From a virus: DNA of 34,968 nucleotides. The stretch lies in IMG/VR virus record IMGVR_UViG_3300019468_000021; one strand, given 5' to 3'. A model generated the notes under the pieces. That model saw only the letters and a list, made by a program, of their open reading frames with translations, was not told where the DNA came from and ran no database searches. Each line of letters opens with the position of its first letter. Positions within the stretch are counted from its first letter, which is position 1. The position numbers and the translations under genes are program-made. Shown here piece by piece: positions 4,382-32,315 of the stretch.

Positions 4382-5287
4382 TCACACCCCCAAATACTTA
4401 GGCGTATAGTAGATATTTACGTCAAGATTGACATAGTTCGTATCTGCAGCATATTCAAGATAATTCTCTCCTACATCCAGCTGGAACGGCTCAGACCGTC
4501 TATCCACACGCTGATAACAATTCACTCCGTTAAGTTCAACAATCTGATGGCGTTCGTTGGTGTCAATTACGAGAACATCCCCTTTGGCCATTTCCACCTT
4601 GACTCTCATAAATTGCCCTGTTCCTGTTCTTGTAATCTTAGGATTACTTACTGGTCCCCTTGTAGCCACAAACTTGATAATCACACCGGTAGATACATCA
4701 CCATCATTAGAAAGCGCCACTTCCTTATGCAGCGTTCTATATCCTGCTGCACGCCCTCCTAATGCAAGCCCGGAATACGGTCTTTTCAGTCCTGTAACCT
4801 TTTTAGCGGTGATTACCCAAGGAAAAGCAAACAAAGGTGTGTATGCTGCCATGTTTTTTCCGAAGTTATCAATATTCAGCATGTATGGATCAGGGCAGTA
4901 TAAATCCACAACAATGGCCAGCCTTGCATCCAGTGAAGCCTTTGCTTTAAAAGTCCAGCCTTCGAGCCTGTATTCAATGTTCCTTGAGACACCCATATAT
5001 TCAATGAGCGCTTTCCCCGTGTACTTTGGATTGAAGAACTTAATCAGGTTTTGCCTGTTCTCTTTATTGTTCCTTAAATCCCGAAAAGAGGCCTCAATAT
5101 GTATTGGTCTGCCCTTTATCTTCAGTCCGTCTACGGTTTCACCGTCTACAAGGGCGTTATCGCTTTTACTGATTTCAATATCCGAACTCTCTAGCCCGGT
5201 TATCTTCGTGATGTCGATATCACAGTCCTTGCCAAAAGTAAGGGTCCTCCCGTTACACGAGAGAATCACTCTAATCTGATTTGCCAT
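4382..5287 (-). CDS. Distal tail protein (Dit-like)
   Basis: 301 aa directly downstream of the tape measure with a TAATG overlap, the conserved TMP-Dit-Tal order. Confidence 0.6.
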   Translation of the reverse strand: MANQIRVILSCNGRTLTFGKDCDIDITKITGLESSDIEISKSDNALVDGETVDGLKIKGRPIHIEASFRDLRNNKENRQNLIKFFNPKYTGKALIEYMGVSRNIEYRLEGWTFKAKASLDARLAIVVDLYCPDPYMLNIDNFGKNMAAYTPLFAFPWVITAKKVTGLKRPYSGLALGGRAAGYRTLHKEVALSNDGDVSTGVIIKFVATRGPVSNPKITRTGTGQFMRVKVEMAKGDVLVIDTNERHQIVELNGVNCYQRVDRRSEPFQLDVGENYLEYAADTNYVNLDVNIYYTPKYLGV

Positions 5288-7944
5288 TATTTCACACCTC
5301 CGACGATGTTACGAATAGCCTCGCGCTGATTTTTTGCCACAACGGAAGGAGCAGGAACTGCCTCATGGTAGTTGTTCGTCTGTTCAATTCGGTTATCGTA
5401 ATATACCGATGTTCCCCCGGCAGAAAATGCCCTTCGGCTTTCTGACGCTCCGGCAGATAGCGCAATCTCTCCGCTATAAGCCGATACGGTGCCTTTCATT
5501 TCATTTAGGAGTGCTGTTGCACTTTCCCTCATGGTTTTTAAGGCACTTGGCATAGATTTTTCTATACCTATCTCTGCTCCGGGAAGAATCCAGCGTCCGA
5601 ACTCATCACGGAAAGCCCTTGAAGGTGAAGCAATGCCGAGGGCATCCTTTGCACCTTCCAGAAGAGATTCCGCAAGGCTTTGAACCTTACTAGTCAGCCA
5701 GTTCCAGCCGTCCGAGATTCCGTTCCAAATGCCTGAAACTATATCTTTACCAATAGAGATCATCTTATCCGGAAGGCCTTTGATTCCATCGACTACCGCA
5801 TTGAACAGTCCTGTTGCCGCCTCAGTACCTTTGGAAACAAGGTCTTGCTTCCATTGATTCAGCTTATTTGCCGTATCTACCAACCACGTCCAAACTTTCC
5901 CCGGCAACTGCTGCATAAAGGTGATTATTGAGTTAATCATAGTCTGAATCGCGGTAGAGGCCTTCTGTTGCATCTCTATGCCCCACTGCACGATTTTCGT
6001 CACCGTATTTACAAGCCAAGTCCAAATCTTACTGGGAAGCTCGGAGAAGAACTTCGTTATGCTCTCAATCCAAGTAGGTACATTTGTTGATATCCATTTC
6101 ACAACATTTGAGCCCCACTTTACGATTGAACCGATTGCATAGCCAAGGGCGTACGCTATACGTTCAGGAAGCTTACCATACCATTTTAAGATACTTTCAA
6201 TCCACTCCGGTACATTTGTGGTAATCCACTCTAATATTGAGGCGCCCCAATCACCGAATTTTGTAACTACATCTGTAAGCCAAGTCCAAATCAATCCGGG
6301 GAGCTTCGCAAACCACTCACCGACCGACTGAATCCATCCCCCAATCGTAGGAGCCACCCATTCGAATAGCTGAATGGCAAGTTCTCCCAGTTCTGTAACA
6401 ATAGCCAGGATAATCTCACCCATTGCCTGTAAGATGAGTGGGATTCCGGTTATAAGGGCATTGACAATGGCCATGATAATCCTTGGCAAGCTTTCAATCA
6501 GTAAAGGAAGCGCCTCGATTATTCCCTTTGCCAAAGCAACTATAATTTCCACGGCACACTCTATGAGTGCCGGGAGTTGATCTAGAATCGTTTCACCGAT
6601 ATAAAGTACAAGCTCAACCAATGCCGGAACCAGGTCCGGGAGCATTATAATTAATCCTTTTGCAAGGCCAACAATGATGTTCTTTGCCGCCTCTATAAAC
6701 TTCTTGAACCCGCCACTGGATATGAACCCTGAAATGCCATTTACGATAGTGTCCGCTAGGCTTGCGAAATCAAAGGACGCTATACCGTCAGCAATCGTGT
6801 TCATAAGGTCAAGCCCTACAGAAGCAACAGTAGAAAGAAGAGACGGCAGTACAGCCACTAACTCCCCAATCACCGAAATAGCTCCGGCAATAAGAGGAGG
6901 AACAAGGCCTTGTATCAAATCCGGAAGAACAGCCACTAGCCCGTTTATCAAGATTACCGCTCCACTAATGAGAGACGGTAATATCTGATTAAAAAGACCG
7001 GGTATCATATCTCCAAGCTTAGATACGAGCGTTGGCAATCCCGCAGCAAGCCTCGGAATGATTTCTGATAGGTTATTTACAACGTTATTTGCCAGTGTCG
7101 CAACAGATTCCGCAAGCTGGTCTACATCCCCTGTGCCTGTGAGAAAGTTATCCCACGCCGCCTTTGCGGCATTCATAGAGCCCTCTATAGTTGTTGAGGC
7201 TTCCTTTGCGGTCGTTCCGGTGATTCCGAGTTCTGTTTGTACCTCATGAATCGCCGTATAAACATCTGAAAGATTGTTTATGTCGTAATGTGTAATCTCT
7301 CCGGTTGTTTGCTGATGGATTTTCTCCGCATCTTGAAGAAGACGCTCCATCTCGCTTTTTGTGCCACCATAACCAAGCTTTAAGTTATCGAGCATTGTGT
7401 AGTTTTGCTTTGCGAAACCCTGATATGCATTTTGGATGCTCTCCATAGAGGAGCCCATTTTATTCGCATTATCACTCATATCTCGAATTGCCTGATCGGC
7501 GACATTTGCCGCCTCAACCTCATTCGAGGTACTTTGCTTTAGGGCTGCCGCAAAGCTTGTGACCGTCTCCATGTACTGGTTTGCCGACATGCCGGCTGTC
7601 CGGTATGCATTATTCGCATTGTCCAGCACCGTGGTTTGAGCCTTTTCAAGGGTAGAAAACTGCCCCTCGACTTCAGACACGGATTTCCCCATGCTTGCAG
7701 CGTATTCTTCAATTGTTGCACCGCCGGCACCAAAAAGCGTCTCTACTCCGCCGACTAACTGCTCATAGCTTGCGACATTTTCAAGAGCACTTTTCGTCAG
7801 TGCAGCGAATGCAACTGTGCCGGCACCAACTGCAGCAGTCACTCCGGCAAAAGCTTTCCCGGCTATTCCACCGAGTTGTCCAACTGCCCCGGAAAACCCC
7901 GAGGAATCGACTTTTGTATCAAAATTTAGTGTTCCATCTGCCAT
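5287..7944 (-). CDS. Tape measure protein
   Basis: 885 aa. Helical Ala/Gly-rich N-terminal part, long hydrophobic middle, and about four 44-aa W-rich tandem repeats (LPxxIWTWL..VTK...WG). Lies between the chaperone genes and Dit. Confidence 0.9.
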   Translation of the reverse strand: MADGTLNFDTKVDSSGFSGAVGQLGGIAGKAFAGVTAAVGAGTVAFAALTKSALENVASYEQLVGGVETLFGAGGATIEEYAASMGKSVSEVEGQFSTLEKAQTTVLDNANNAYRTAGMSANQYMETVTSFAAALKQSTSNEVEAANVADQAIRDMSDNANKMGSSMESIQNAYQGFAKQNYTMLDNLKLGYGGTKSEMERLLQDAEKIHQQTTGEITHYDINNLSDVYTAIHEVQTELGITGTTAKEASTTIEGSMNAAKAAWDNFLTGTGDVDQLAESVATLANNVVNNLSEIIPRLAAGLPTLVSKLGDMIPGLFNQILPSLISGAVILINGLVAVLPDLIQGLVPPLIAGAISVIGELVAVLPSLLSTVASVGLDLMNTIADGIASFDFASLADTIVNGISGFISSGGFKKFIEAAKNIIVGLAKGLIIMLPDLVPALVELVLYIGETILDQLPALIECAVEIIVALAKGIIEALPLLIESLPRIIMAIVNALITGIPLILQAMGEIILAIVTELGELAIQLFEWVAPTIGGWIQSVGEWFAKLPGLIWTWLTDVVTKFGDWGASILEWITTNVPEWIESILKWYGKLPERIAYALGYAIGSIVKWGSNVVKWISTNVPTWIESITKFFSELPSKIWTWLVNTVTKIVQWGIEMQQKASTAIQTMINSIITFMQQLPGKVWTWLVDTANKLNQWKQDLVSKGTEAATGLFNAVVDGIKGLPDKMISIGKDIVSGIWNGISDGWNWLTSKVQSLAESLLEGAKDALGIASPSRAFRDEFGRWILPGAEIGIEKSMPSALKTMRESATALLNEMKGTVSAYSGEIALSAGASESRRAFSAGGTSVYYDNRIEQTNNYHEAVPAPSVVAKNQREAIRNIVGGVK

Positions 7945-11210: not shown

Positions 11211-12068
11211 TTACTGTGCTGTGTGTGCGTAGACACCGGGAAGCTTGTTGTCTCTTACTTCTGCAATTCCGGCAGTACGATAACCGAACTTCCAAGCATC
11301 TGCATCCTGATTTTGATCAGGAGTAATGATCTTGTTTACGGTGTGCTTCTGGAACTGGATAACCGCTCTCTTATCTACCGCAAGGAAGTTGATTGCTCCG
11401 GCTCCCTTGAATCCTCCGGCTTCCTGTCCACTTGTAGTCCCATTGTTCAGGGTAATGGTCTTAAAGAAACGGGAAGAAGGAACTTCAATAATGCCAGCCC
11501 ATCCGTCAAGTGCAGCGCGGCTTGCAGTGGTATCGAGCCCATCAATCATGTCCTTAAGAGGGGACTTAATGAACAGATAAACCGTATCCAAGCTTGCTTC
11601 CGCGTCCTTGATTGCACTCTTTGCCGCCATAACCGCATCAATCGCCGCCTTACCATTTGCCAAGGCACCAGCAGCAGAACCAATTCCTGCCTTCGAAGCA
11701 TAAGTACCTAAGCGGTATGCGTCGAGCTCCGGAACAACCTTAGTACGAACGAACTCCGCAGATAGTGCGGAGAATACCGGTGTAGCCTCCATCTCATCCA
11801 AAGCATCTACAGTGAACATTCTTCCGCGGTCATATCCGATTTTCTTAGTCTCATACTCGAAAGTCACGGATCCGTTTACATACCCGCTGTTTCTTCCGTA
11901 GTTCGCAAGCCCATCCATGGACATCTTAGGAATGAGCAGCTCGTTTGCATTCGCTCCTTCTTTTACCAGAGTGTTGTCTCCGTCGAGGACACTTGTTAAA
12001 GACGCAAGCTTATAAACCTCGTCCAGTGCCTCGGAATAGAACTTTCTTAACTGAATTGCATTTGCCAT
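11211..12068 (-). CDS. Major capsid protein
   Basis: Start at the ATG at 12068 (SD ggaggaaaaaacaATG). 285 aa following the scaffold gene. LRKFYSEALDEVYKLASLTSVLDGDN...resembles A118-type capsid proteins. Confidence 0.8.
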   Translation of the reverse strand: MANAIQLRKFYSEALDEVYKLASLTSVLDGDNTLVKEGANANELLIPKMSMDGLANYGRNSGYVNGSVTFEYETKKIGYDRGRMFTVDALDEMEATPVFSALSAEFVRTKVVPELDAYRLGTYASKAGIGSAAGALANGKAAIDAVMAAKSAIKDAEASLDTVYLFIKSPLKDMIDGLDTTASRAALDGWAGIIEVPSSRFFKTITLNNGTTSGQEAGGFKGAGAINFLAVDKRAVIQFQKHTVNKIITPDQNQDADAWKFGYRTAGIAEVRDNKLPGVYAHTAQ

Positions 12069-12091
12069 TGTTTTTTCCTCCATCGATTAAT

Positions 12092-12646
12092 TTAATTTTT
12101 CTCTTCCGGGAGTCCCATGAGCGCTCTCATAGTGGAGAAATCAGCGGAATTACCGCTTTCGCTACCTCCGGTTCTCCCAACTGCGTTTTTGTGTGGCTCT
12201 TCTGAGCCGAACATATAGGAATCAGACTTCCGAATAGCCTCAAGCGCTGTCTTAATGTCAGCACTCTGGTCTTTAGATGCCTTAAGAGAATCAATATCTA
12301 GCATTGCCATGATGGCCTTTGCATTCTTACCGCCTGCAGCAGTAATCGCTCCGGACAGAGTATCATTGAAAGCACGCTCTGCTTCTTTGGCGGTGTACTC
12401 ATCATCCTTTTTCTTTAGGTCGCTTTGCAAATCAGTGATTTGTTTCTTAAGCGCTTCAACATCCACACCGTCAAACTTCCCTAGGCTTTCTTTTGCGGTA
12501 TCAAGCTGGGATTCGTAATTGTCCCTCTCCCCTTCCGCCTTTGTCGCCTTGGCTTTCTCCGCAGCAATATCTTTTCCGTTCTCAGCCATAATCTTGTCAA
12601 TCTGTTCCTGTTCGAGCCCAAGCTCCTTCAAAAATTCGGTTTTCAT
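12092..12646 (-). CDS. Scaffolding protein (GP20-like)
   Basis: Start at the ATG at 12646 (SD gaaaggagagactATG). Highly charged coiled coil: MKTEFLKELGLEQEQIDKIMAENGKDI.... Confidence 0.8.
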   Translation of the reverse strand: MKTEFLKELGLEQEQIDKIMAENGKDIAAEKAKATKAEGERDNYESQLDTAKESLGKFDGVDVEALKKQITDLQSDLKKKDDEYTAKEAERAFNDTLSGAITAAGGKNAKAIMAMLDIDSLKASKDQSADIKTALEAIRKSDSYMFGSEEPHKNAVGRTGGSESGNSADFSTMRALMGLPEEKN

Positions 12647-12733
12647 AGTCTCTCCTTTCACACATAGGTTGTTTTAGGGCTTTAACCAGCGCCCCGTGAA
12701 TAATCCGCCTTTAAGGTCTCGGATTCTAGACCA

Positions 12734-12766
12734 ATAAAAAGACACCCTCCCAAATGGGAAGGTGCC
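12734..12766 (-). terminator. Strand-specific intrinsic terminator after the DUF4926-like mini-gene
   Basis: Minus RNA ggcaccuuccc-auuu-gggaggguguc pairs at 11 bp with two G.U pairs (two mismatches on the plus strand), followed by uuuuuauugg. Confidence 0.7.
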
Positions 12767-12790
12767 GATTTAACGAAGTATAGAATGGAA

Positions 12791-12985
12791 TTAAATATGT
12801 TCGAGTTCTTCGGACATACAATCAAGAATGGCGTAGTCGTTTTCTCCGCCTATCCCTCCTTCAATCTTGCCTTTATTATCAGCCTCTACCACAAGGCATT
12901 GTCTTTCCCCATGTTGGGTTACATCGACAATCACTCCAGTAATATTCTTGTTCCTTACTCTAACCTTATCAAATAATTTAAACAT
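12791..12985 (-). CDS. DUF4926-like small protein; candidate immunity/antidote partner of the MuF C-terminal module
   Basis: 64 aa, SD ataggaggttaatgaaATG. MFKLFDKVRVRNKNITGVIVDV...CLVVEADN...DYAILDCMSEELE fits the small SH3-like DUF4926 pattern. The overlapping plus-strand ORF 12785..12976 lacks an SD. Confidence 0.55.
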   Translation of the reverse strand: MFKLFDKVRVRNKNITGVIVDVTQHGERQCLVVEADNKGKIEGGIGGENDYAILDCMSEELEHI

Positions 12986-12989
12986 TTCA

Positions 12990-14501
12990 TTAACCTCCTA
13001 TCCTATAAGCGGTTATAAATCTCGGCATTGCACCACTCTTGTCTATTCTCCAAACAGTTCTAAACGTTCTTTTTTTTCTACCTACGCCAAGCATCATAGA
13101 AATTGTATACTGCCGTCCTCCTTCTGGCAAGACTTCCGTAGTCTCTATTTTGCTTTGGTCATATTGTCCTAGAATATTTCTCCTTAGCCGCTTCTGGTCG
13201 CTTATACTGTTCGTATAGCCAACTGAAAAGAACTCATCGGCATGTTTTGCTCCAGGCTTTAAACAAAACTCGGAAATTTTGCGATTATCTATAACGACTA
13301 TATTTTTATTAACCTCCGCTATTTTCCACTCTTTGTAGGTGGCTTGGCTAGGAGATATTCGCCCTTTTAGATCATAGTATATCCTTTCCCGCTGTTCAAG
13401 AAATCCGAAGTAATTACAAAATTCCTTGTACTCATCAAGCTGTGCCTGATATTTGCACCGCTCGATAGTAATATCCTCGGAATCTGCTCCTCCCTCTTCT
13501 AAGAGTTGAACCTCTTCTCTCTGTGCGCGCATATTGGTTTCCATACGGCGCTGTTTCTGCGTGGCTTCATAGGCGTTGTACTCTTTACCACGGAAAGTCT
13601 TCTTTCGTGCCTCTCTTGCGTTTTGTTCTGCAAGCCACTTATCTGTATACGTTCGCTCAGAACCCTCAAAGAATGGGTAATACTCGTGCCGGCAATTCCA
13701 ACCGAGCAATCCTCCTCCGCTTCCAAGGCCGCAGATACTCTCAAGCTGTTTCTTGGAGTATACCTTTCCTTGCCATGCAGCGTGGTCTGGTCTCGCTCCG
13801 GCATGCCAGGATACCTCGAATTTTTCAACACCAAGACTTTCGGCATTCATATCCATAATTTTACCGGATAATTGCGATGCTCCTGTTAATACCGCTCTGC
13901 GCGCTGCAACATCTACTCTGTTGTGCCAGCCGGAGGCATAGTCTACTGTTCTAAGCCCGCTGTCTGTAAGTTCCTTACACACCCTGCGAATCAGAGTATT
14001 GTAATCATACATTCCTGATGTAAGTCCAATCATTGCCTGGTCAAGGTATCCATTGTATATCTCAGAAAGAGGTGTGTATACAGACTTCCCTTTCCCAATC
14101 ATGAACCCCATAGATCTAGTTATCCCGGAAAGCTCCTGCTCAGTCTGAACCGTAATAGCTTTCACCGCCTGTTGAAGCTGGTAGTTTTCCGCGTAGGGTA
14201 TAAAGTTTCCCGTGATTCTTTCATACTGTGGCTTGTAGATTGTGTACTCATTGGCTATCACCTCCTCATAAAGCCTCTTTACCTCCTTGCCGTTGTACCC
14301 AACAGCCGAGGCTATTATCTTCTCTATGTCGCTAGTGCTTTTCCCGAGCATAAGCATTCGGTTTAACTGCCAGTCTGCCATACTGGTTATCTTACCGGCT
14401 TTTTTTATCCTGCGGACTACATCCGCCATGACATCCTGCTCAAGCTTTCGGTATTTAGCCTCTAATCCTACCGCAAGAGAGGAACTATAGCTTTCTCTCA
14501 C
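12990..14501 (-). CDS. MuF / SPP1 gp7-like head morphogenesis protein with C-terminal DUF6883-like module
   Basis: 503 aa, GTG start overlapping the portal stop. MuF core (...WHNRVDVAARRAVLTG..., WNCRHEYYPF), then a helical linker. The last ~104 aa, VVIDNRKISEFCLKPGAKHADEFFSVGY...TFRTVWRIDKSGAMPRFITAYRI, match the DUF6883 pattern. Confidence 0.8.
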   Translation of the reverse strand: MRESYSSSLAVGLEAKYRKLEQDVMADVVRRIKKAGKITSMADWQLNRMLMLGKSTSDIEKIIASAVGYNGKEVKRLYEEVIANEYTIYKPQYERITGNFIPYAENYQLQQAVKAITVQTEQELSGITRSMGFMIGKGKSVYTPLSEIYNGYLDQAMIGLTSGMYDYNTLIRRVCKELTDSGLRTVDYASGWHNRVDVAARRAVLTGASQLSGKIMDMNAESLGVEKFEVSWHAGARPDHAAWQGKVYSKKQLESICGLGSGGGLLGWNCRHEYYPFFEGSERTYTDKWLAEQNAREARKKTFRGKEYNAYEATQKQRRMETNMRAQREEVQLLEEGGADSEDITIERCKYQAQLDEYKEFCNYFGFLEQRERIYYDLKGRISPSQATYKEWKIAEVNKNIVVIDNRKISEFCLKPGAKHADEFFSVGYTNSISDQKRLRRNILGQYDQSKIETTEVLPEGGRQYTISMMLGVGRKKRTFRTVWRIDKSGAMPRFITAYRIGG

Positions 14502-15856
14502 GGCATTATAGTGGACGGCTGCTCAGGCAGATTGGCGGCAGCAGTCTCCTCGTCCTCTTGGTACCACTTCGCCCTATACTCAGCAAGCCCCATAACACCC
14601 ATAGCCACATCCTTGCGATCCTGTTCGCGTTCGCTCTCTTCGTCGGTAAGGATGCTGTCATTGAATGCACAGGAGAATTCATACTTAGTCGTATATAGCT
14701 CGCTGTAGAAGGCGAGGGCATCCACAAAGTCAGAAAGACAATCTCGGAGATTCTCTTGGATTGCATTCACTCGGTTATACTTCCGCTGCTTAGAGGCTCT
14801 AATTTCTGTTGCTGTCTTATCTACCTCTGAGGCGTCTGACAAATCCCCATAAGCAAGGCCTACAATGAACTCAATATTTCGGTAAGTCTTTTCCAGTCCC
14901 CTAATATAGGCTTCGTCCCTCATAGCCGGAGAGTATTCCTTATAAAGTTCTCCTTGGTTTTGCTCAAGGTTAAGTCCTCGGTATAGCCTCTGCTTTCCTT
15001 CCGGAAGCTTTACTCTTCCATCCTTGTGGCGGAGGGCTCTCTCATCTACATGGACGGCTCTTTCTCCGGAGCTGTACTCCCAATCAAGACGGCCGTACTG
15101 GATATCCGCCTTTCTAATTGCCGATACGGCAGCTGAATAGATTGACACTCCACACGGAGAGCCGTCTACTCTGTTCTTAAGCGGCACCCGGAAATATCCG
15201 TAATCGTTCTTTGTCATTCCGGGAAAGACAACGGGCCCTGGTTCAATGTTCGCCCACTCGTCTATGTCCGCAAGATTCCCGGGCGATCCTATCATGCTTT
15301 CCGAACTGGAGCGATAGCAACGATTCTCAATAACAAGATTGTGGTTATTGTCAAAATAGTGTCGTTCTACTCTTGTAAACCAGCTGTTCTCTCCTACCTT
15401 CTTACGGGTAAAGAACATAATGTCCGAAGGCTTGCCCTCATCATCAAAGGCAATAGGCACGAATTTATCTGCCGATACGAATTCCGACCGCCCTTCTCCT
15501 AGCGGCTTAAGGATAAAAGAACCTAACGCAAGGCCATCTTGCAAATTCTCGTTAAGGTCTCGAATGGCGTTCTTGAGCACGGCGTCCAATACCGGATTAT
15601 CAATACTGGCCTCCATCTCTCCAAGAGCAATATCCGCAAATTCTCTACAGATACACTCCTCCAGCTTAAGAGATGTAATTCCTTTATCTTCGTTAATCCA
15701 ATCCGCTGCGCCGCATATCATATCCTTCCACAGATTGATCGCGTCAATCATAGGCTGGGACATTGTGATATCTCGCCCGGCTATGCCTTTCATAATATTG
15801 TAACCGAACATCTTACCCATTACTCCTTTCAGCCAGTTTGTTAGATTTTCAAACAT
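14498..15856 (-). CDS. Portal protein (SPP1 Gp6-like)
   Basis: 452 aa between TerL and MuF. Acidic C terminus. Size and order are typical. Confidence 0.85.
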   Translation of the reverse strand: MFENLTNWLKGVMGKMFGYNIMKGIAGRDITMSQPMIDAINLWKDMICGAADWINEDKGITSLKLEECICREFADIALGEMEASIDNPVLDAVLKNAIRDLNENLQDGLALGSFILKPLGEGRSEFVSADKFVPIAFDDEGKPSDIMFFTRKKVGENSWFTRVERHYFDNNHNLVIENRCYRSSSESMIGSPGNLADIDEWANIEPGPVVFPGMTKNDYGYFRVPLKNRVDGSPCGVSIYSAAVSAIRKADIQYGRLDWEYSSGERAVHVDERALRHKDGRVKLPEGKQRLYRGLNLEQNQGELYKEYSPAMRDEAYIRGLEKTYRNIEFIVGLAYGDLSDASEVDKTATEIRASKQRKYNRVNAIQENLRDCLSDFVDALAFYSELYTTKYEFSCAFNDSILTDEESEREQDRKDVAMGVMGLAEYRAKWYQEDEETAAANLPEQPSTIMP

Positions 15857-15857
15857 A

Positions 15858-17159
15858 TTAAACCCCTATCAGTTCTTTGATATCGCGTTCATACGTATAC
15901 TCCATAGCGTCCAAGCTATCTATGTCCGTAGAGCCGTCATCCAAACGTATATCATTTTCCTCTGTTTTATCCCATACAGCATCAGAGAGCGCATTTTGTA
16001 CTGTCTCTGCATCGTCAGTAATCCAAAAACGCCCTACTCCCATAAGACGAAGTGTGCAGTTAATACGGTCATTTATCCGTTCTTTCTTTGCCGGGCGAAC
16101 AATGATAAACGGGAATTCCTTTTCAACCGCGTTACGAATAGACATGCCGAGCACACTTTCCGCATTGTCCCAATACACGCTTTCCAAGTTATGATATCCG
16201 TCATAAGAGGTCATGCCGTAGGTCTCTTCTACATACCGGACAAAATCAATAAAGAGCCTGTCCAGCTTGTTGCTATCTATCGCCTCGCCGGTATCCGTTG
16301 CCTTTATTCTTCTAGAGGCAAGAATGATTAGATTCTGGTATCCGTCTGCATACCCTCTGGCCACAAATGCGTGTCCCGATTGATTTCCTCCGAAGTCAAG
16401 CCCAATCTCAATGCTGTTTATATCCTCCTTGCGAAACTGCTTACGATTCGCACCGGGGTCTATATTATTTACTATCTCGCACTTAAATGATGCGGGCTCA
16501 TCAGCAAACTTTCTGTAGATTGCCCCCTCTGCTCTCTTCCAGCGACCAAGGATTAAGCGGTCATAATAAATTGTTCCGCTGTATTCCTTACAGAGATTGT
16601 CCACAAATTCCTTGGACAAGTGCGGATTATCAAAAATCGTGTATTCCTGTAAGTACATATCTACATCGGAATCTATAAACTTCTTAAGCCAGTGCGTAGG
16701 GTGTTCCGGGTTACAGGCACCATCAAAACACGAATAAGGTTTATCTAGTCGAGACTGTAATATCCGGAATACTTCCTTGTTCCACTTAGCAATCTCGTCC
16801 CCGTAGGCATACTTTATCGAGGCACCCTGTATCTTTGCCACCTGTGATATCTTCTCTGCTCCAAGGCAGTAAACATCCTCGCCGAATAGCCTGGCAATAT
16901 TTCGGGAATTAATCATCCCGACTCGCTTTAGTGTGTATACCTCCCTCATAGGTTCTAGGACGTTTCGCTCTATTGTATCTCGTGAAACTCCCAGTATTAC
17001 CGTAAGTCCCAGCTTTCCTAGTCTCTCTATGATCCTTTCTGGTATTACTGCTGTGATATCCACGAACGATTTACCGGAACGCACCGCTCCGGATTTAATA
17101 TTCCACCGCCTTTTTGCTTGCTCAAGATATTCAGTTTGTTTCGTGCTTAAATTTATCAC
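15858..17159 (-). CDS. terL: Terminase large subunit (PBSX/Terminase_3-like)
   Basis: 433 aa. Walker A GAVRSGKS near the N terminus and a C-terminal nuclease-like region. GTG start overlapping the terS 3' end. Confidence 0.9.
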   Translation of the reverse strand: MINLSTKQTEYLEQAKRRWNIKSGAVRSGKSFVDITAVIPERIIERLGKLGLTVILGVSRDTIERNVLEPMREVYTLKRVGMINSRNIARLFGEDVYCLGAEKISQVAKIQGASIKYAYGDEIAKWNKEVFRILQSRLDKPYSCFDGACNPEHPTHWLKKFIDSDVDMYLQEYTIFDNPHLSKEFVDNLCKEYSGTIYYDRLILGRWKRAEGAIYRKFADEPASFKCEIVNNIDPGANRKQFRKEDINSIEIGLDFGGNQSGHAFVARGYADGYQNLIILASRRIKATDTGEAIDSNKLDRLFIDFVRYVEETYGMTSYDGYHNLESVYWDNAESVLGMSIRNAVEKEFPFIIVRPAKKERINDRINCTLRLMGVGRFWITDDAETVQNALSDAVWDKTEENDIRLDDGSTDIDSLDAMEYTYERDIKELIGV

Positions 17160-31235: not shown

Positions 31236-32315
31236 ATGGCGATAGAAAGACTGAGAAGCGGGCACTATAGAATCCGCTTCGAAAAGGACCGGAAGAAATA
31301 TTCCATAACCACCGATAGAAAGCCTACAAAGCATGAAGAAGCAGCTCTGATTCAAGAATACATGGAAAATCTACTGGAGCAACAGAATAGAAAAAAGAAT
31401 GGCTCTTTCCTGGATTTTGCAAATGAATATATAGACAGTAAAGAAAAGGTACTTTCTGCCAGTACCATTAGAGGATACAAAGCCACATTAAGAGGAATAC
31501 CGGAATCCTTTACAGGCCTTCCCTTTTATGAGATAGAGCAACACGATATTACTAAAGTAATTAACGATATGATGGATAAAGCTAAGCCAAAAACGATATA
31601 CAATAGGCATGGTCTGATTGTTTCCGTGCTAAAAGAATTCCGACCGGCTTTTGTTGTTCATACCAAACTCCCCAGGAAAGAACAGAATGATATATATACC
31701 CCGGGAGAAGCAGAGGTGAAAGCCCTTTTTGACTACATTGAAAATACACCAAGGGCGAATAAATACTATGTACCGCTCTGTTTGGCCGTGATGGGATTAA
31801 GACGGTCAGAGATAGGGGCTTTAACTGTTGAAGACCTCTCTAAAGACAATATGATTACCATAAATAAGGCTAAGGTTATCAATTCTGATAAAAAATGGGT
31901 GATTCAACCTTATACAAAGACGGAGAAGAGTAATAGAATTATTCCCGTACCTGCTAAGTTAGCCAAAGCAATACGAAGACAGGGGTTTGTATTTAATGGG
32001 GATTTAAACAGCTTCTACAAAAGAATAGTGAATATAGAGAAACGTTTAGGATTACGCCCTTTCGGAATCCATAGACTACGTTCCTATTTCGCCAGTAAAG
32101 CTCATGCACTTGGAATGCCGGATTCCGTTATTCTGTCTTTAGGAGGATGGAAGTCGGACTATGTAATGAAAAGCATTTATAGAAAAGCTCTTAAAGAGGA
32201 TATAAAAAAAGGTACACAAGCTTATCTGAAACACATTGCCACAATGGAGAAATCAAAGAAGAAAAAAAGCACAGAACCGCCCACGAAACCGCCCACGAAA
32301 ATTAAACAATGTTGA
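31236..32315 (+). CDS. int: Tyrosine recombinase / phage integrase
   Basis: 359 aa. Catalytic signature LAVMGLRRSEI (Arg), HRLRSYFAS (H-x-x-R), GGWKSDYVMKSIY (Trp/His position, Tyr). The C-terminal tail TEPPTKPPTKIKQC is encoded by the arm-type repeat. Confidence 0.9.
   Translation: MAIERLRSGHYRIRFEKDRKKYSITTDRKPTKHEEAALIQEYMENLLEQQNRKKNGSFLDFANEYIDSKEKVLSASTIRGYKATLRGIPESFTGLPFYEIEQHDITKVINDMMDKAKPKTIYNRHGLIVSVLKEFRPAFVVHTKLPRKEQNDIYTPGEAEVKALFDYIENTPRANKYYVPLCLAVMGLRRSEIGALTVEDLSKDNMITINKAKVINSDKKWVIQPYTKTEKSNRIIPVPAKLAKAIRRQGFVFNGDLNSFYKRIVNIEKRLGLRPFGIHRLRSYFASKAHALGMPDSVILSLGGWKSDYVMKSIYRKALKEDIKKGTQAYLKHIATMEKSKKKKSTEPPTKPPTKIKQC
32277..32297. repeat. 21-bp arm-type repeat, copy 1 (ccgcccacgaaaccgcccacg; internally a tandem of CCGCCCACG)
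   Basis: Perfect copy of 32486-32506. Lies inside the int 3' end, 44 nt left of the tRNA-like core. Confidence 0.7.

What the first reader, a model, noticed from the sequence alone, without database searches (positions are those of the whole stretch)
12734..13304. MuF head-morphogenesis protein ends in a DUF6883-like module, followed by a DUF4926-like mini-gene with a private terminator: candidate virion-associated toxin/immunity pair
Seen in the sequence:
- The 503-aa MuF/SPP1-gp7-like protein has an ordinary MuF core and helical linker.
- Its last ~104 aa (NIVVIDNRKISEFCLKPGAKHADEFFSVGY...RTFRTVWRIDKSGAMPRFITAYRIGG) look like a separate module.
- The next gene (12791-12985, 64 aa, strong SD) is a tiny SH3-like ORF. 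A strand-specific terminator follows it, before the scaffold gene.

Established knowledge: temperate Firmicutes phages encode MuF polymorphic toxins, meaning a MuF N-terminal domain, a variable C-terminal toxin and a downstream immunity gene.

Inference: the C-terminal module matches my memory of the DUF6883 pattern (kl.dY.L.p...g..KA.fF...Gf ... tvWi.....PrliTAyp). The mini-gene matches DUF4926. As I recall, these two families of unknown function co-occur as free-standing gene pairs. If that holds, this phage packages a DUF6883 effector on a head protein and carries its antidote. That would give a functional handle on two uncharacterised families.
Basis: partly seen in the sequence, partly recalled or inferred. 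Interest (0 to 1): 0.75.

Follow-up and report, generated by a model that had tools for sequence, protein, structure and literature searches.

The report
Phage head-protein toxin with antidote gene
A temperate gut-bacterial phage carries a probable RNA-cutting toxin domain fused to a head protein, followed by a tiny probable antidote gene; the arrangement is real and strongly conserved, but this type of system has already been described.

Summary
On the minus strand, the gene after the portal gene encodes a 503-aa MuF-type minor capsid protein. Residues 2-363 match Pfam Phage_min_cap2. Residues 400-500 match DUF6883 above Pfam's curated cut-off. Four bases later comes a 64-aa ORF with an AGGAGG ribosome-binding site, then a one-directional terminator, then the scaffold gene.

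The 64-aa protein is not a detectable DUF4926. Pfam gives no hit, and a profile-profile comparison with real DUF4926 proteins gives 31% probability. It belongs to an unannotated family of about 60-aa SH3-like barrels (300 representatives).

A member of that family immediately follows every relative of this DUF6883 subfamily that I could check: 78 viral and 13 genome loci. The carrier varies: MuF1, MuF2, VG15, a DUF7211 tag or none. The closest cultured phages have the same MuF core but a different toxin, or no toxin at all.

This is the pattern of a MuF polymorphic toxin with its immunity gene. A 2026 preprint already links DUF6883 ("BECR-Tox3", a predicted RNase) to MuF fusions and to downstream DUF4926. 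So this is a new member of a known kind, with a divergent antidote family. Toxicity, RNase activity and packaging into virions remain untested.

The parts
13413..14498 (-). MuF-superfamily core (Phage_min_cap2 / 'MuF2'), residues 2-363 of the 503-aa protein. It is the presumed head-associated carrier.
   Evidence: Pfam PF06152, E 6.5e-102. PHROG 581 'minor head protein'. Residues 1-399 are 61% identical to the MuF of Acutalibacter phage Fontainebleau, and residues 1-393 are 55% identical to that of Ruminococcus phage RG-TP1.
13305..13412 (-). Linker, residues 364-399, between the MuF core and the C-terminal module. The recombination breakpoint lies at its end.
   Evidence: It lies between the two Pfam envelopes. 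Similarity to the MuF proteins of cultured phages ends at residue 393-399.
12990..13304 (-). C-terminal DUF6883 / 'BECR-Tox3'-type module (residues 400-503 plus the stop codon). It is the predicted RNase-like toxin/effector domain.
   Evidence: Pfam PF21814, 36.9 bits (39.8 bits alone) against a cut-off of 27. hhalign against canonical plasmid DUF6883 gives 97% probability, E 1e-10. The AF2 model has pLDDT 94.1, with three helices followed by a four-stranded sheet. H420 is invariant, and K408, K415, K419, E423, T482, R494 and T497 are at least 93% conserved in 44 unique homologues.
12994..12999 (-). Shine-Dalgarno sequence AGGAGG for the mini-gene, embedded in the last MuF codons, 8 nt upstream of the ATG.
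   Evidence: Read directly from the sequence.
12791..12985 (-). 64-aa SH3-like small-barrel protein, the predicted cognate immunity/antidote. It belongs to an unannotated family, not to Pfam DUF4926.
   Evidence: AF2 model pLDDT 95.3, five strands. The family has 300 representatives at E<=1e-3 in 1.84 billion proteins. A member is always the next gene after the DUF6883-like module: 78 viral and 13 genome loci. Toxin and mini identities co-vary, r=0.92. No DUF4926 hit.
12731..12766 (-). Intrinsic-terminator-like hairpin plus T-run that closes the MuF/mini unit before the scaffold gene.
   Evidence: Consensus scan found 11 pairs, 7 of them G-C, then TTTTTATTGG. Comparable hairpins with different sequences follow the mini-gene in 33 of 51 non-redundant related loci, against 30 of 199 other ORF ends.
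13102..13130 (-). Promoter-like site (TTGCCA-17-TACAAT) inside the toxin-coding DNA, 117 nt upstream of the mini-gene. This is a hypothetical promoter for immunity expression in lysogens.
   Evidence: Consensus match of 10/12. The number of promoter-like sites in the region is not above the shuffled expectation (6 against 4.4+-2.1). The hexamers are unchanged in relatives, but the region is ~95% identical throughout, so this is uninformative. It is a lead only.

Best explanation
The window is a temperate siphovirus-type phage or prophage of gut Clostridia. Its post-portal head gene encodes a MuF polymorphic toxin. This has three parts: a MuF2 (Phage_min_cap2) core that associates the protein with the capsid or portal, a linker, and an exchangeable ~104-aa C-terminal DUF6883/'BECR-Tox3' domain.

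The C-terminal domain is most likely a metal-independent endoribonuclease of the barnase/EndoU/colicin/RelE kind. The candidate catalytic residues are H420 and T497, with K415, K419 and R494 also conserved.

The 64-aa SH3-like protein encoded 4 nt downstream is its cognate immunity protein. It is translated from the same late transcript and binds and blocks the toxin domain in the producing cell. Toxin domain, immunity gene and, usually, a terminator travel together as one cassette. That cassette has been grafted onto several different head-protein carriers.

**Shown here**
- Domain identities.
- Strict gene linkage.
- Co-divergence of the two proteins.
- Swapping of the C-terminus among close relatives.
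- Recurrence of the terminator.

**Inferred**
- Toxicity.
- RNase chemistry.
- Physical neutralisation.
- Delivery of the toxin with the virion into the next cell.
For: **Membership and context**
- Pfam hits for both domains are above the curated cut-offs.
- The gene sits directly after the portal gene in a temperate phage. PHROGs identify portal, large terminase, scaffold, capsid, integrase and repressor.

**Polymorphism**
- Acutalibacter phage Fontainebleau has a MuF core 61% identical but a Gln_amidase papain-fold toxin domain at its C-terminus, plus an unrelated 78-aa downstream ORF.
- Ruminococcus phage RG-TP1 has the core only, at 397 aa.

**Portability of the module**
- The same DUF6883 subfamily sits on Phage_min_cap2, Phage_Mu_F, VG15 and DUF7211-tagged carriers, or stands alone.
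- It is homologous to stand-alone plasmid DUF6883 genes paired with DUF4926.

**Linkage**
- All 78 viral loci and all 13 genome loci that have downstream DNA carry a mini-family ORF at -26 to +5 nt.
- Four of six mini-family members examined in the reverse direction have a DUF6883 gene immediately upstream.
- Pairwise identities of toxin domains and mini proteins correlate at r=0.92, with 0 of 999 permutations reaching that value.

**Active-site pattern**
- H420 is invariant and sits at the N-terminal helical part. T497 sits in the last strand.
- This fits the common BECR configuration described in PMC5512222 section 19.

**Literature**
- MuF toxins: PMC5576092.
- Experimentally toxic MuF C-terminal domains neutralised by immunity proteins: PMC12226406.
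- DUF6883 = BECR-Tox3 with MuF fusions: bioRxiv 10.64898/2026.08.28.747851.
Against: - No solved structure matches the toxin model significantly. Foldseek against PDB gives nothing at E<=1e-3. HigB2 and RelE appear only at TM 0.34-0.40. The BECR/RNase assignment therefore rests on the preprint and on residue patterns.
- The invariant lysine of canonical DUF6883 (the K in 'KAxFF') is not conserved in this subfamily, and H420 is present in only 2 of 5 canonical proteins. The active site is not obviously shared across the family.
- The mini protein has no detectable similarity to any characterised immunity or antitoxin family.
- Gene linkage and co-divergence would also arise for any two adjacent genes that move together.
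- No complex prediction could be run.
- Nothing here shows that the domain is retained on MuF in virions.
Confidence: 0.7

Rival explanations
1. Phage-benefit early effector rather than an interbacterial toxin. The DUF6883 domain is injected with the DNA. It cleaves host or defence RNAs (mRNAs, tRNAs, CRISPR RNAs) to help take over the newly infected cell. The 64-aa protein is only an assembly-time inhibitor or chaperone that keeps the domain silent in the producing cell. The anatomy is the same as in the best explanation; the biological role differs.
For: - Iyer et al. 2017 propose exactly this for MuF- and portal-fused PBECR RNase domains.
- A structural match in BFVD has the same fold fused to a Zn metallopeptidase, an architecture typical of polyvalent proteins (A0A8S5MSY7, TM 0.76).
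- The mini-gene lies in the late operon, co-translated with MuF.
- Some carriers sit next to ParB and ADP-ribosyltransferase-like genes.
Against: - Stand-alone DUF6883-DUF4926 pairs on plasmids of non-phage context look like toxin-antidote modules.
- Orphan mini genes and remnants with a disrupted toxin but an intact mini gene occur in bacterial chromosomes. That is the pattern expected of immunity against a harmful toxin.
- The closest relatives do without the module, so it is not needed for infection.
Confidence: 0.3
2. Toxin-antitoxin-like addiction or abortive-infection cassette that merely hitchhikes in the head module. The pair stabilises the prophage or excludes other phages from inside the lysogen. 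Fusion to MuF is incidental, and the domain is not delivered by virions.
For: - Canonical DUF6883-DUF4926 pairs are two-gene units on plasmids, some next to other TA genes.
- Prophage remnants keep the pair next to RelB/ParE and a recombinase.
- A terminator closes the cassette in about 65% of lineages, in the manner of a moron.
Against: - In most viral loci the toxin domain is translationally fused to a head-protein carrier (MuF1, MuF2 or VG15) and so is made only with late proteins.
- The small protein has no DNA-binding domain typical of type II antitoxins.
- No independent promoter for the pair is demonstrated.
Confidence: 0.12
3. Non-toxic structural or nucleic-acid-binding appendage. The C-terminal domain is a catalytically inert RNA/DNA-binding module of the head protein, as proposed for the MuF-C domain of phage Mu gp30. 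The 64-aa barrel is a small head-assembly accessory.
For: - Iyer et al. 2017 regard the PBECR-like domain of Mu gp30 as inactive.
- There is no significant structural match to an active RNase.
- The active-site lysine of canonical DUF6883 is not kept.
Against: - His, Thr, Lys and Arg residues are invariant or nearly so across homologues only 33-47% identical.
- The domain is dispensable and is swapped for a deamidase toxin in close relatives.
- It occurs free-standing and on plasmids with a partner gene.
- The partner is retained as an orphan in chromosomes.
Confidence: 0.08

Closest known systems
MuF polymorphic toxins of temperate phages (Jamet et al. 2017, PMC5576092; Zhang et al. 2012, PMC3482391). 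Characterised examples are the Apk2 (p)ppApp-synthetase MuF toxins (PMC12226406).
   Same: - N-terminal MuF-superfamily domain (here MuF2/PF06152).
- Gene directly after the portal gene.
- Variable C-terminal domain shared with other contexts.
- Small ORF (<150 aa) immediately downstream.
- Temperate Firmicutes phage.
- C-terminus swapped among close relatives.
   Different: - The C-terminal domain is DUF6883, which was not yet a Pfam family in 2017. The passages of that survey read here do not mention it.
- There are no experimental data for this toxin type.
- The immunity candidate is a ~60-aa SH3-like barrel from an unannotated family.
DUF6883 / 'BECR-Tox3' with downstream DUF4926 (bioRxiv 10.64898/2026.08.28.747851). 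Stand-alone pairs occur on plasmids of Nitrosococcus, Stanieria, Meiothermus, Nostoc and Gloeothece.
   Same: - The toxin domain is homologous: Pfam above the cut-off, and hhalign 97%.
- A small beta-rich partner gene lies immediately downstream.
- MuF fusions are noted by the preprint.
   Different: - The partner here is not recognisable as DUF4926. It lacks the 'dlPE.gL' insertion and differs in the C-terminal half.
- The subfamily has its own conserved motif, LKPGAKHxxEFFxVGY...FRTVW...PRFITAY, with an invariant His in place of the canonical Lys.
PBECR (phage BECR) RNase domains fused to MuF, portal or polyvalent proteins (Iyer et al. 2017, PMC5512222).
   Same: - A small alpha+beta domain at the C-terminus of MuF proteins.
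- His in the N-terminal helical part and Thr in the last strand.
- Predicted to be packaged and injected.
   Different: - Membership in any of the six PBECR families was not tested because their profiles are not available here.
- PBECR domains were not described with a dedicated downstream inhibitor gene.
RelE/HigB-type ribosome-dependent mRNA interferases (type II TA toxins).
   Same: Weak structural resemblance: HigB2 (5ja8, 8a0x) and RelE (1wmi) rank among the top PDB matches. The toxin gene precedes the antidote gene, as in higBA.
   Different: - TM-scores are only 0.34-0.40 and no hit is significant.
- No sequence similarity was found.
- The partner is not a DNA-binding antitoxin.
- The toxin is fused to a virion protein.

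Membership tests
MuF polymorphic toxin (Jamet 2017) | N-terminal MuF-superfamily domain (PF04233 or PF06152) | tested here: met
   PF06152, residues 2-363, E 6.5e-102, 341.6 bits against a cut-off of 26.3.
MuF polymorphic toxin (Jamet 2017) | Gene immediately downstream of the portal gene in the packaging/head module of a temperate phage | tested here: met
   Portal (phrog_533, E 3.5e-112) at 14498-15856 overlaps the MuF start. Large terminase lies upstream; scaffold and major head protein lie downstream. Integrase, repressor-like and anti-repressor genes are present.
MuF polymorphic toxin (Jamet 2017) | C-terminal extension that is variable among relatives and shared with other protein contexts | tested here: met
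   Fontainebleau has the same core with a Gln_amidase domain, and RG-TP1 has no extension. The DUF6883 module also occurs on MuF1, VG15 and DUF7211 carriers, free-standing, and on plasmids.
MuF polymorphic toxin (Jamet 2017) | Small ORF (<150 aa) immediately downstream (candidate immunity) | tested here: met
   A 64-aa ORF lies 4 nt downstream. A homologous ORF is present in 78 viral and 13 genome loci.
MuF polymorphic toxin (Jamet 2017) | C-terminal domain is toxic and is neutralised by the downstream protein | not testable with these tools
   This needs expression assays. There is only indirect support: co-divergence at r=0.92, and orphan or remnant copies of the small gene.
Pfam DUF6883 (PF21814) / BECR-Tox3 | Score above Pfam's gathering threshold | tested here: met
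   36.9 bits in the full protein and 39.8 bits for the isolated domain, against 27. hhalign against five annotated DUF6883 proteins gives 97% probability, E 1.1e-10.
Pfam DUF6883 (PF21814) / BECR-Tox3 | BECR fold (N-terminal helix followed by a 4-5 stranded sheet) with RNase active site | tested here: inconclusive
   The AF2 model (pLDDT 94.1) has helices followed by four strands. H420 and T497 are conserved. However, Foldseek against PDB gives no hit at E<=1e-3, and HigB2/RelE reach only TM 0.34-0.40. Only three viral predicted structures match, at TM 0.72-0.76.
Pfam DUF4926 (PF16277) | Score above Pfam's gathering threshold | tested here: not met
   The window protein has no DUF4926 hit at E<=1. 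Only 2 of 49 and 4 of 83 family members give hits, all below threshold, best E 0.011 and 0.0072.
Pfam DUF4926 (PF16277) | Profile-level homology to bona fide DUF4926 proteins | tested here: inconclusive
   hhalign of the 83-sequence mini family against 10 RefSeq-annotated DUF4926 proteins gives 31% probability, E 5e-4. It covers 34 columns of the N-terminal half only and needs an 8-residue gap.
Pfam DUF4926 (PF16277) | Position immediately downstream of a DUF6883 gene | tested here: met
   The mini-gene is 4 nt after the DUF6883-bearing gene. This is the same position as DUF4926 in L096, L097, L098 and L103.
Type II toxin-antitoxin system | Autonomous two-gene operon whose antitoxin carries a DNA-binding domain and autoregulates | tested here: not met
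   The toxin domain is fused to a late structural protein. The partner is a 64-aa all-beta barrel with no HTH, RHH or AbrB match.

The most novel reading that the evidence does not exclude
The ~60-aa SH3-like proteins form a previously unrecognised immunity family dedicated to a phage-borne DUF6883 RNase subfamily. The immunity gene behaves as a moron-like unit: an internal promoter inside the toxin-coding DNA plus its own terminator. It is therefore expressed in lysogens and protects kin against incoming virion-borne toxin. Hosts also capture orphan copies, some lying directly against CRISPR repeats, as a form of protein-level 'vaccination' against these phages.
Probability: 0.2. Interest if true: 0.6.

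Novelty: new member of a known kind. Interest (0 to 1): 0.35.

Why it matters
If the prediction holds, a widespread group of human-gut Clostridia phages ships an RNase on its capsid and carries the antidote next to it. The phage family was seen in more than 300 blocks of the assembly index. Such a system would affect lysogen-versus-competitor dynamics in the gut.

It would also give experimental access to DUF6883, for which I found no experimental data, and to a partner family that no database annotates.

The strict, carrier-independent linkage makes this pair a clean test case. The cassette is domain, ~60-aa gene and terminator. It can show how toxin-immunity cassettes are grafted onto virion proteins.

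The concept itself is already in the literature: MuF toxins, DUF6883 as a BECR toxin, and a small downstream partner. The gain is incremental.

Tried and rejected
**Dead ends**
- Direct Pfam, NCBIfam and PADLOC scans of the mini protein for DUF4926 or any immunity family gave nothing usable.
- I tried to obtain a DUF4926 reference from the Enterococcus phage paper. The accession PV491271 is not in the collection. The equivalent gene in phage LG62 scores as DUF4314-like, not DUF4926. I abandoned that route and used plasmid RefSeq annotations instead.
- Megablast of the head module against cultured phages found no match.
- A sequence search of the toxin profile against PDB found only a spurious capping-enzyme hit at E 0.31.
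- Foldseek against PDB gave no significant neighbour for the toxin model, so I do not claim a demonstrated BECR fold.

**Uninformative**
- Conservation of the promoter-like hexamers in relatives cannot discriminate, because the region is ~95% identical throughout.

**Considered and rejected**
- That the 96-aa protein P0009 is a genuine free-standing toxin. It is a truncated, frameshifted remnant of the MuF gene next to bacterial genes.
- That the short 121- and 178-aa carriers are all genuinely solo. At least the 178-aa form is identical to the C-terminus of a 612-aa MuF.
Full report
**1. What is in the sequence**

All relevant genes are on the minus strand. PHROG searches give this order:
- large terminase, 15858-17159
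- portal, 14498-15856, phrog_533, E 3.5e-112
- the 503-aa protein, 12990-14501
- a 64-aa ORF, 12791-12985
- head scaffolding protein, 12092-12661
- major head protein, 11211-12083
- tape measure protein, 5287-7944

The window also encodes an integrase (31236-32315, plus strand), a repressor-like regulator, an Ant anti-repressor, a DNA polymerase, a primase-helicase and an endolysin. It has no tRNA genes. It is therefore an essentially complete temperate siphovirus-type phage or prophage.

The 503-aa protein has two Pfam domains:
- Phage_min_cap2 (PF06152) at residues 2-363, E 6.5e-102.
- DUF6883 (PF21814) at residues 400-500, 36.9 bits against a gathering score of 27. The isolated 104 aa score 39.8 bits.

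The mini-gene starts 4 nt after the MuF stop codon. Its AGGAGG site lies 8 nt upstream of the ATG, inside the last MuF codons. A hairpin with an 11-bp stem at 12766-12741 is followed by TTTTTATTGG on the minus strand only.

**2. The C-terminal module**

An AlphaFold2 model built on 18 homologues is confident, with pLDDT 94.1. It shows three helices followed by a four-stranded antiparallel sheet.

Foldseek finds no significant PDB neighbour. HigB2 and RelE are among the top hits, but only at TM 0.34-0.40. Among predicted viral structures it matches the C-termini of two other 'minor capsid proteins' and a domain fused to a Zn metallopeptidase, at TM 0.72-0.76 and E about 2e-5.

A profile of the module matches five RefSeq-annotated stand-alone DUF6883 proteins from plasmids at 97% probability, E 1e-10.

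I compared 44 unique domains that are 33-97% identical to the window:
- H420, F425, G428, Y429, L439, L471, G472, F480 and W484 are invariant.
- K408, K415, K419, E423, T482, R494 and T497 are at least 93% conserved.

Iyer et al. 2017 describe the commonest active-site layout of BECR RNases as a His in the N-terminal helical part plus a Ser/Thr in strand 4 (PMC5512222). The pattern here fits that layout.

A 2026 preprint reclassifies DUF6883 as 'BECR-Tox3', a Colicin-like BECR ribonuclease toxin. RNase function here rests on that literature plus residue patterns. I did not demonstrate it.

The canonical DUF6883 lysine (the K in 'KAxFF') is not kept in this subfamily, and H420 is shared by only 2 of 5 canonical proteins. 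The catalytic set may differ within the family.

**3. The mini-gene**

The model is a five-stranded SH3-like barrel with pLDDT 95.3. Its nearest structures are CAP-Gly and Tudor domains, at TM 0.6-0.77.

It is not a recognisable DUF4926:
- The window protein has no Pfam hit at E<=1.
- Close relatives carry no Pfam annotation.
- A profile search found 96 clusters, none annotated.
- An exhaustive HMMER search of 1.84 billion representatives found 300 at E<=1e-3, nearly all 55-70 aa.
- Of 49 and 83 members scanned, only 2 and 4 touch DUF4926, all below threshold (best E 0.011 and 0.0072). The MutS2/Smr SH3 model is touched more often.
- I retrieved 10 genuine DUF4926 proteins from plasmids. hhalign of the two families gives 31% probability, E 5e-4. 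It covers only the first three strands and needs an 8-residue gap.

The mini protein occupies the DUF4926 position and probably shares its general fold class. Membership fails the family's own test, and remote homology is unresolved.

**4. Evidence that the two genes form one functional cassette**

*Conservation in the same phage family.* The arrangement of a 503-aa MuF carrying DUF6883 followed by a 64-aa ORF appears in all eight metagenome contigs examined. The mini protein P0003 is indexed in 334 blocks of the collection.

*Carrier independence.* More distant relatives of the toxin domain (41-53% identity) occur in several contexts:
- As 133-160-aa proteins with an N-terminal DUF7211 motif, between the large terminase and portal genes.
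- As a 156-aa protein elsewhere in a head module.
- Fused to Phage_Mu_F, Phage_min_cap2 or VG15 carriers.

*Forward linkage.* In 80 viral contigs, all 78 loci with downstream DNA have a mini-family ORF starting at -26 to +4 nt. The same holds for 13 of 13 bacterial genome loci, at -17 to +5 nt. These are mostly Oscillospiraceae, Ruminococcus, Gemmiger and other Clostridia MAGs.

*Reverse linkage.* Four of six mini-family members I looked up have a DUF6883 gene directly upstream.

*Co-divergence.* Pairwise identities of toxin domains and their mini proteins correlate at r=0.92, with 0 of 999 Mantel permutations reaching that value. The loci are phylogenetically related, so this shows joint inheritance and divergence. 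It does not prove contact.

*Polymorphism.* Among cultured phages, the MuF of Acutalibacter phage Fontainebleau is 61% identical over residues 1-399. It then continues into a Gln_amidase papain-fold toxin domain followed by an unrelated 78-aa ORF. The MuF of Ruminococcus phage RG-TP1 is 55% identical over residues 1-393 and ends at 397 aa.

A conserved N-terminus with a swapped C-terminus and a swapped small downstream gene is the signature that defines polymorphic toxins. Jamet et al. 2017 describe it for MuF proteins of temperate Firmicutes phages. For another MuF toxin class, toxicity and specific neutralisation by downstream immunity proteins have been shown experimentally (PMC12226406).

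**5. The terminator**

A strong hairpin (dG <= -12 kcal/mol) plus a T-run lies within 100 nt after the mini-gene in 33 of 51 non-redundant loci. The same test finds one at 30 of 199 other ORF ends in the same loci (Fisher p about 1e-11; the loci are not independent).

The hairpin sequences differ between lineages and between insertion sites. The main exception is the Phage_Mu_F-carrier group.

A terminator in the middle of a late head operon is reminiscent of phage morons. A promoter-like site (TTGCCA-17-TACAAT, 13130-13102) lies inside the toxin-coding DNA. Promoter-like sites are not enriched in the region, and conservation is uninformative. Separate expression of immunity in lysogens is only a hypothesis.

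**6. Mechanism proposed**

*Shown:* the domain architecture, the linkage and the modular exchange.

*Inferred:*
- MuF places the toxin in or on the capsid. Head association is literature knowledge for Mu gpF and SPP1 gp7, as summarised.
- The DUF6883 domain acts as an RNase.
- The 64-aa barrel binds and blocks it in the producing cell.
- The toxin enters the next cell with the DNA.

It remains open whether the payoff is competition between lysogens and non-immune neighbours (Jamet 2017) or help in host takeover and counter-defence (Iyer 2017). I rank the competition/immunity reading higher, for two reasons. Intact partner genes persist where the toxin is lost or broken. Close relatives also manage without the module.

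**7. Comparison with what is known, and novelty**

- The class, MuF polymorphic toxins, is established (2012, 2017).
- MuF-fused BECR RNase domains were described in 2017.
- The specific statement that DUF6883 is a BECR toxin, is often fused to Phage_Mu_F and is often followed by DUF4926 is in a preprint dated 29 Aug 2026.

The window is therefore a new member of a known kind. This analysis adds four points:
- The gut-Clostridia phage subfamily of DUF6883 is paired with a distinct, unannotated ~60-aa barrel family, not with a recognisable DUF4926.
- The pairing is strict across at least four head-associated carriers.
- A terminator usually travels with the pair.
- Orphan partner genes exist in host chromosomes.

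None of the functional claims is tested, and no complex prediction was possible with the tools available.

Noticed in passing
L126:1460-2683; L125:413-2683; L131-L134:2443-2683: An orphan mini-family gene (P0060/P0066, 60 aa) plus an 87-aa Cys-rich ORF forms a ~600-bp segment. The segment begins with the last codons of a toxin gene ('HREDEK*') and directly abuts a CRISPR repeat (GTTTTAATCTATCCATATTGGAATGTAAAT). In L125 and L126 it follows arrays with 31 and 15 exact copies of the repeat, and in L126 Cas1-Cas2 lie just upstream of the array. In L131-L134 it follows a single perfect repeat, with no cas genes nearby, between a polysaccharide deacetylase gene and a radical-SAM gene. No toxin remnant lies upstream.
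   Followed up: partly
L009:6001-6543: A prophage remnant lies next to bacterial Rrf2, aldolase and PTS genes. Only the last ~80 codons of the MuF-DUF6883 gene survive, with a frameshift before the FRTVW...TAY strands. The 64-aa gene is intact and 97% identical to the window's.
   Followed up: partly
L135-L138 (for example L135:1689-2683): A truncated VG15-DUF6883 gene (256-270 aa) plus an intact 60-aa mini-gene sits between a bacterial LytTR response regulator and a large serine recombinase, with RelB/ParE beyond in three of the four loci. It looks like a decayed prophage end that retains the pair.
   Followed up: no
L010:1869-2237 and L010:4001-4483 (also L011, L013, L014): The short DUF7211 motif (YLGGVLxHxGVKGMKWGVRR) heads both the free-standing 160-aa toxin and a second small protein just upstream of the large terminase gene in the same phages. 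It might be a capsid-targeting tag that replaces MuF as the carrier. This was not tested.
   Followed up: no
L106:2501-4637 (Acutalibacter phage Fontainebleau, ON453893.1): The closest cultured relative's 'minor head protein' is itself an unannotated MuF toxin. It combines Phage_min_cap2 with a Gln_amidase domain (PF15644, papain-fold toxin 1, E 4.8e-14) and is followed by a 78-aa ORF with no Pfam match.
   Followed up: partly
L099, L105, L100, L101 (plasmids of Thermus, Shinella, Simplicispira): Bona fide DUF4926 genes also occur without an annotated DUF6883 neighbour. One lies between cas3'' and cas6 in Thermus brockianus. Others lie next to HicB or MbcA/ParS/Xre antitoxin genes. The PLSDB gene tables are incomplete, so absence of a toxin gene is not proven.
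   Followed up: no
BFVD A0A8S5MSY7: The DUF6883-like fold (TM 0.76) also occurs in a 316-aa viral protein named 'Zinc-binding metallo-peptidase'. That architecture is typical of the polyvalent proteins of Iyer et al. 2017.
   Followed up: no
window:13102-13130 (minus strand): A sigma-70-like promoter match (TTGCCA-17-TACAAT, 10/12) lies inside the toxin-coding region, 117 nt upstream of the mini-gene. Together with the terminator it could define a separate immunity transcript. The evidence is a consensus match only.
   Followed up: partly
P0008 (NCBI genome contig, 169 kb): This is a 107-aa variant of the mini protein. Its first ~46 residues match the family; it then diverges into an unrelated tail. 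It is probably a frameshifted copy in a bacterial genome.
   Followed up: no
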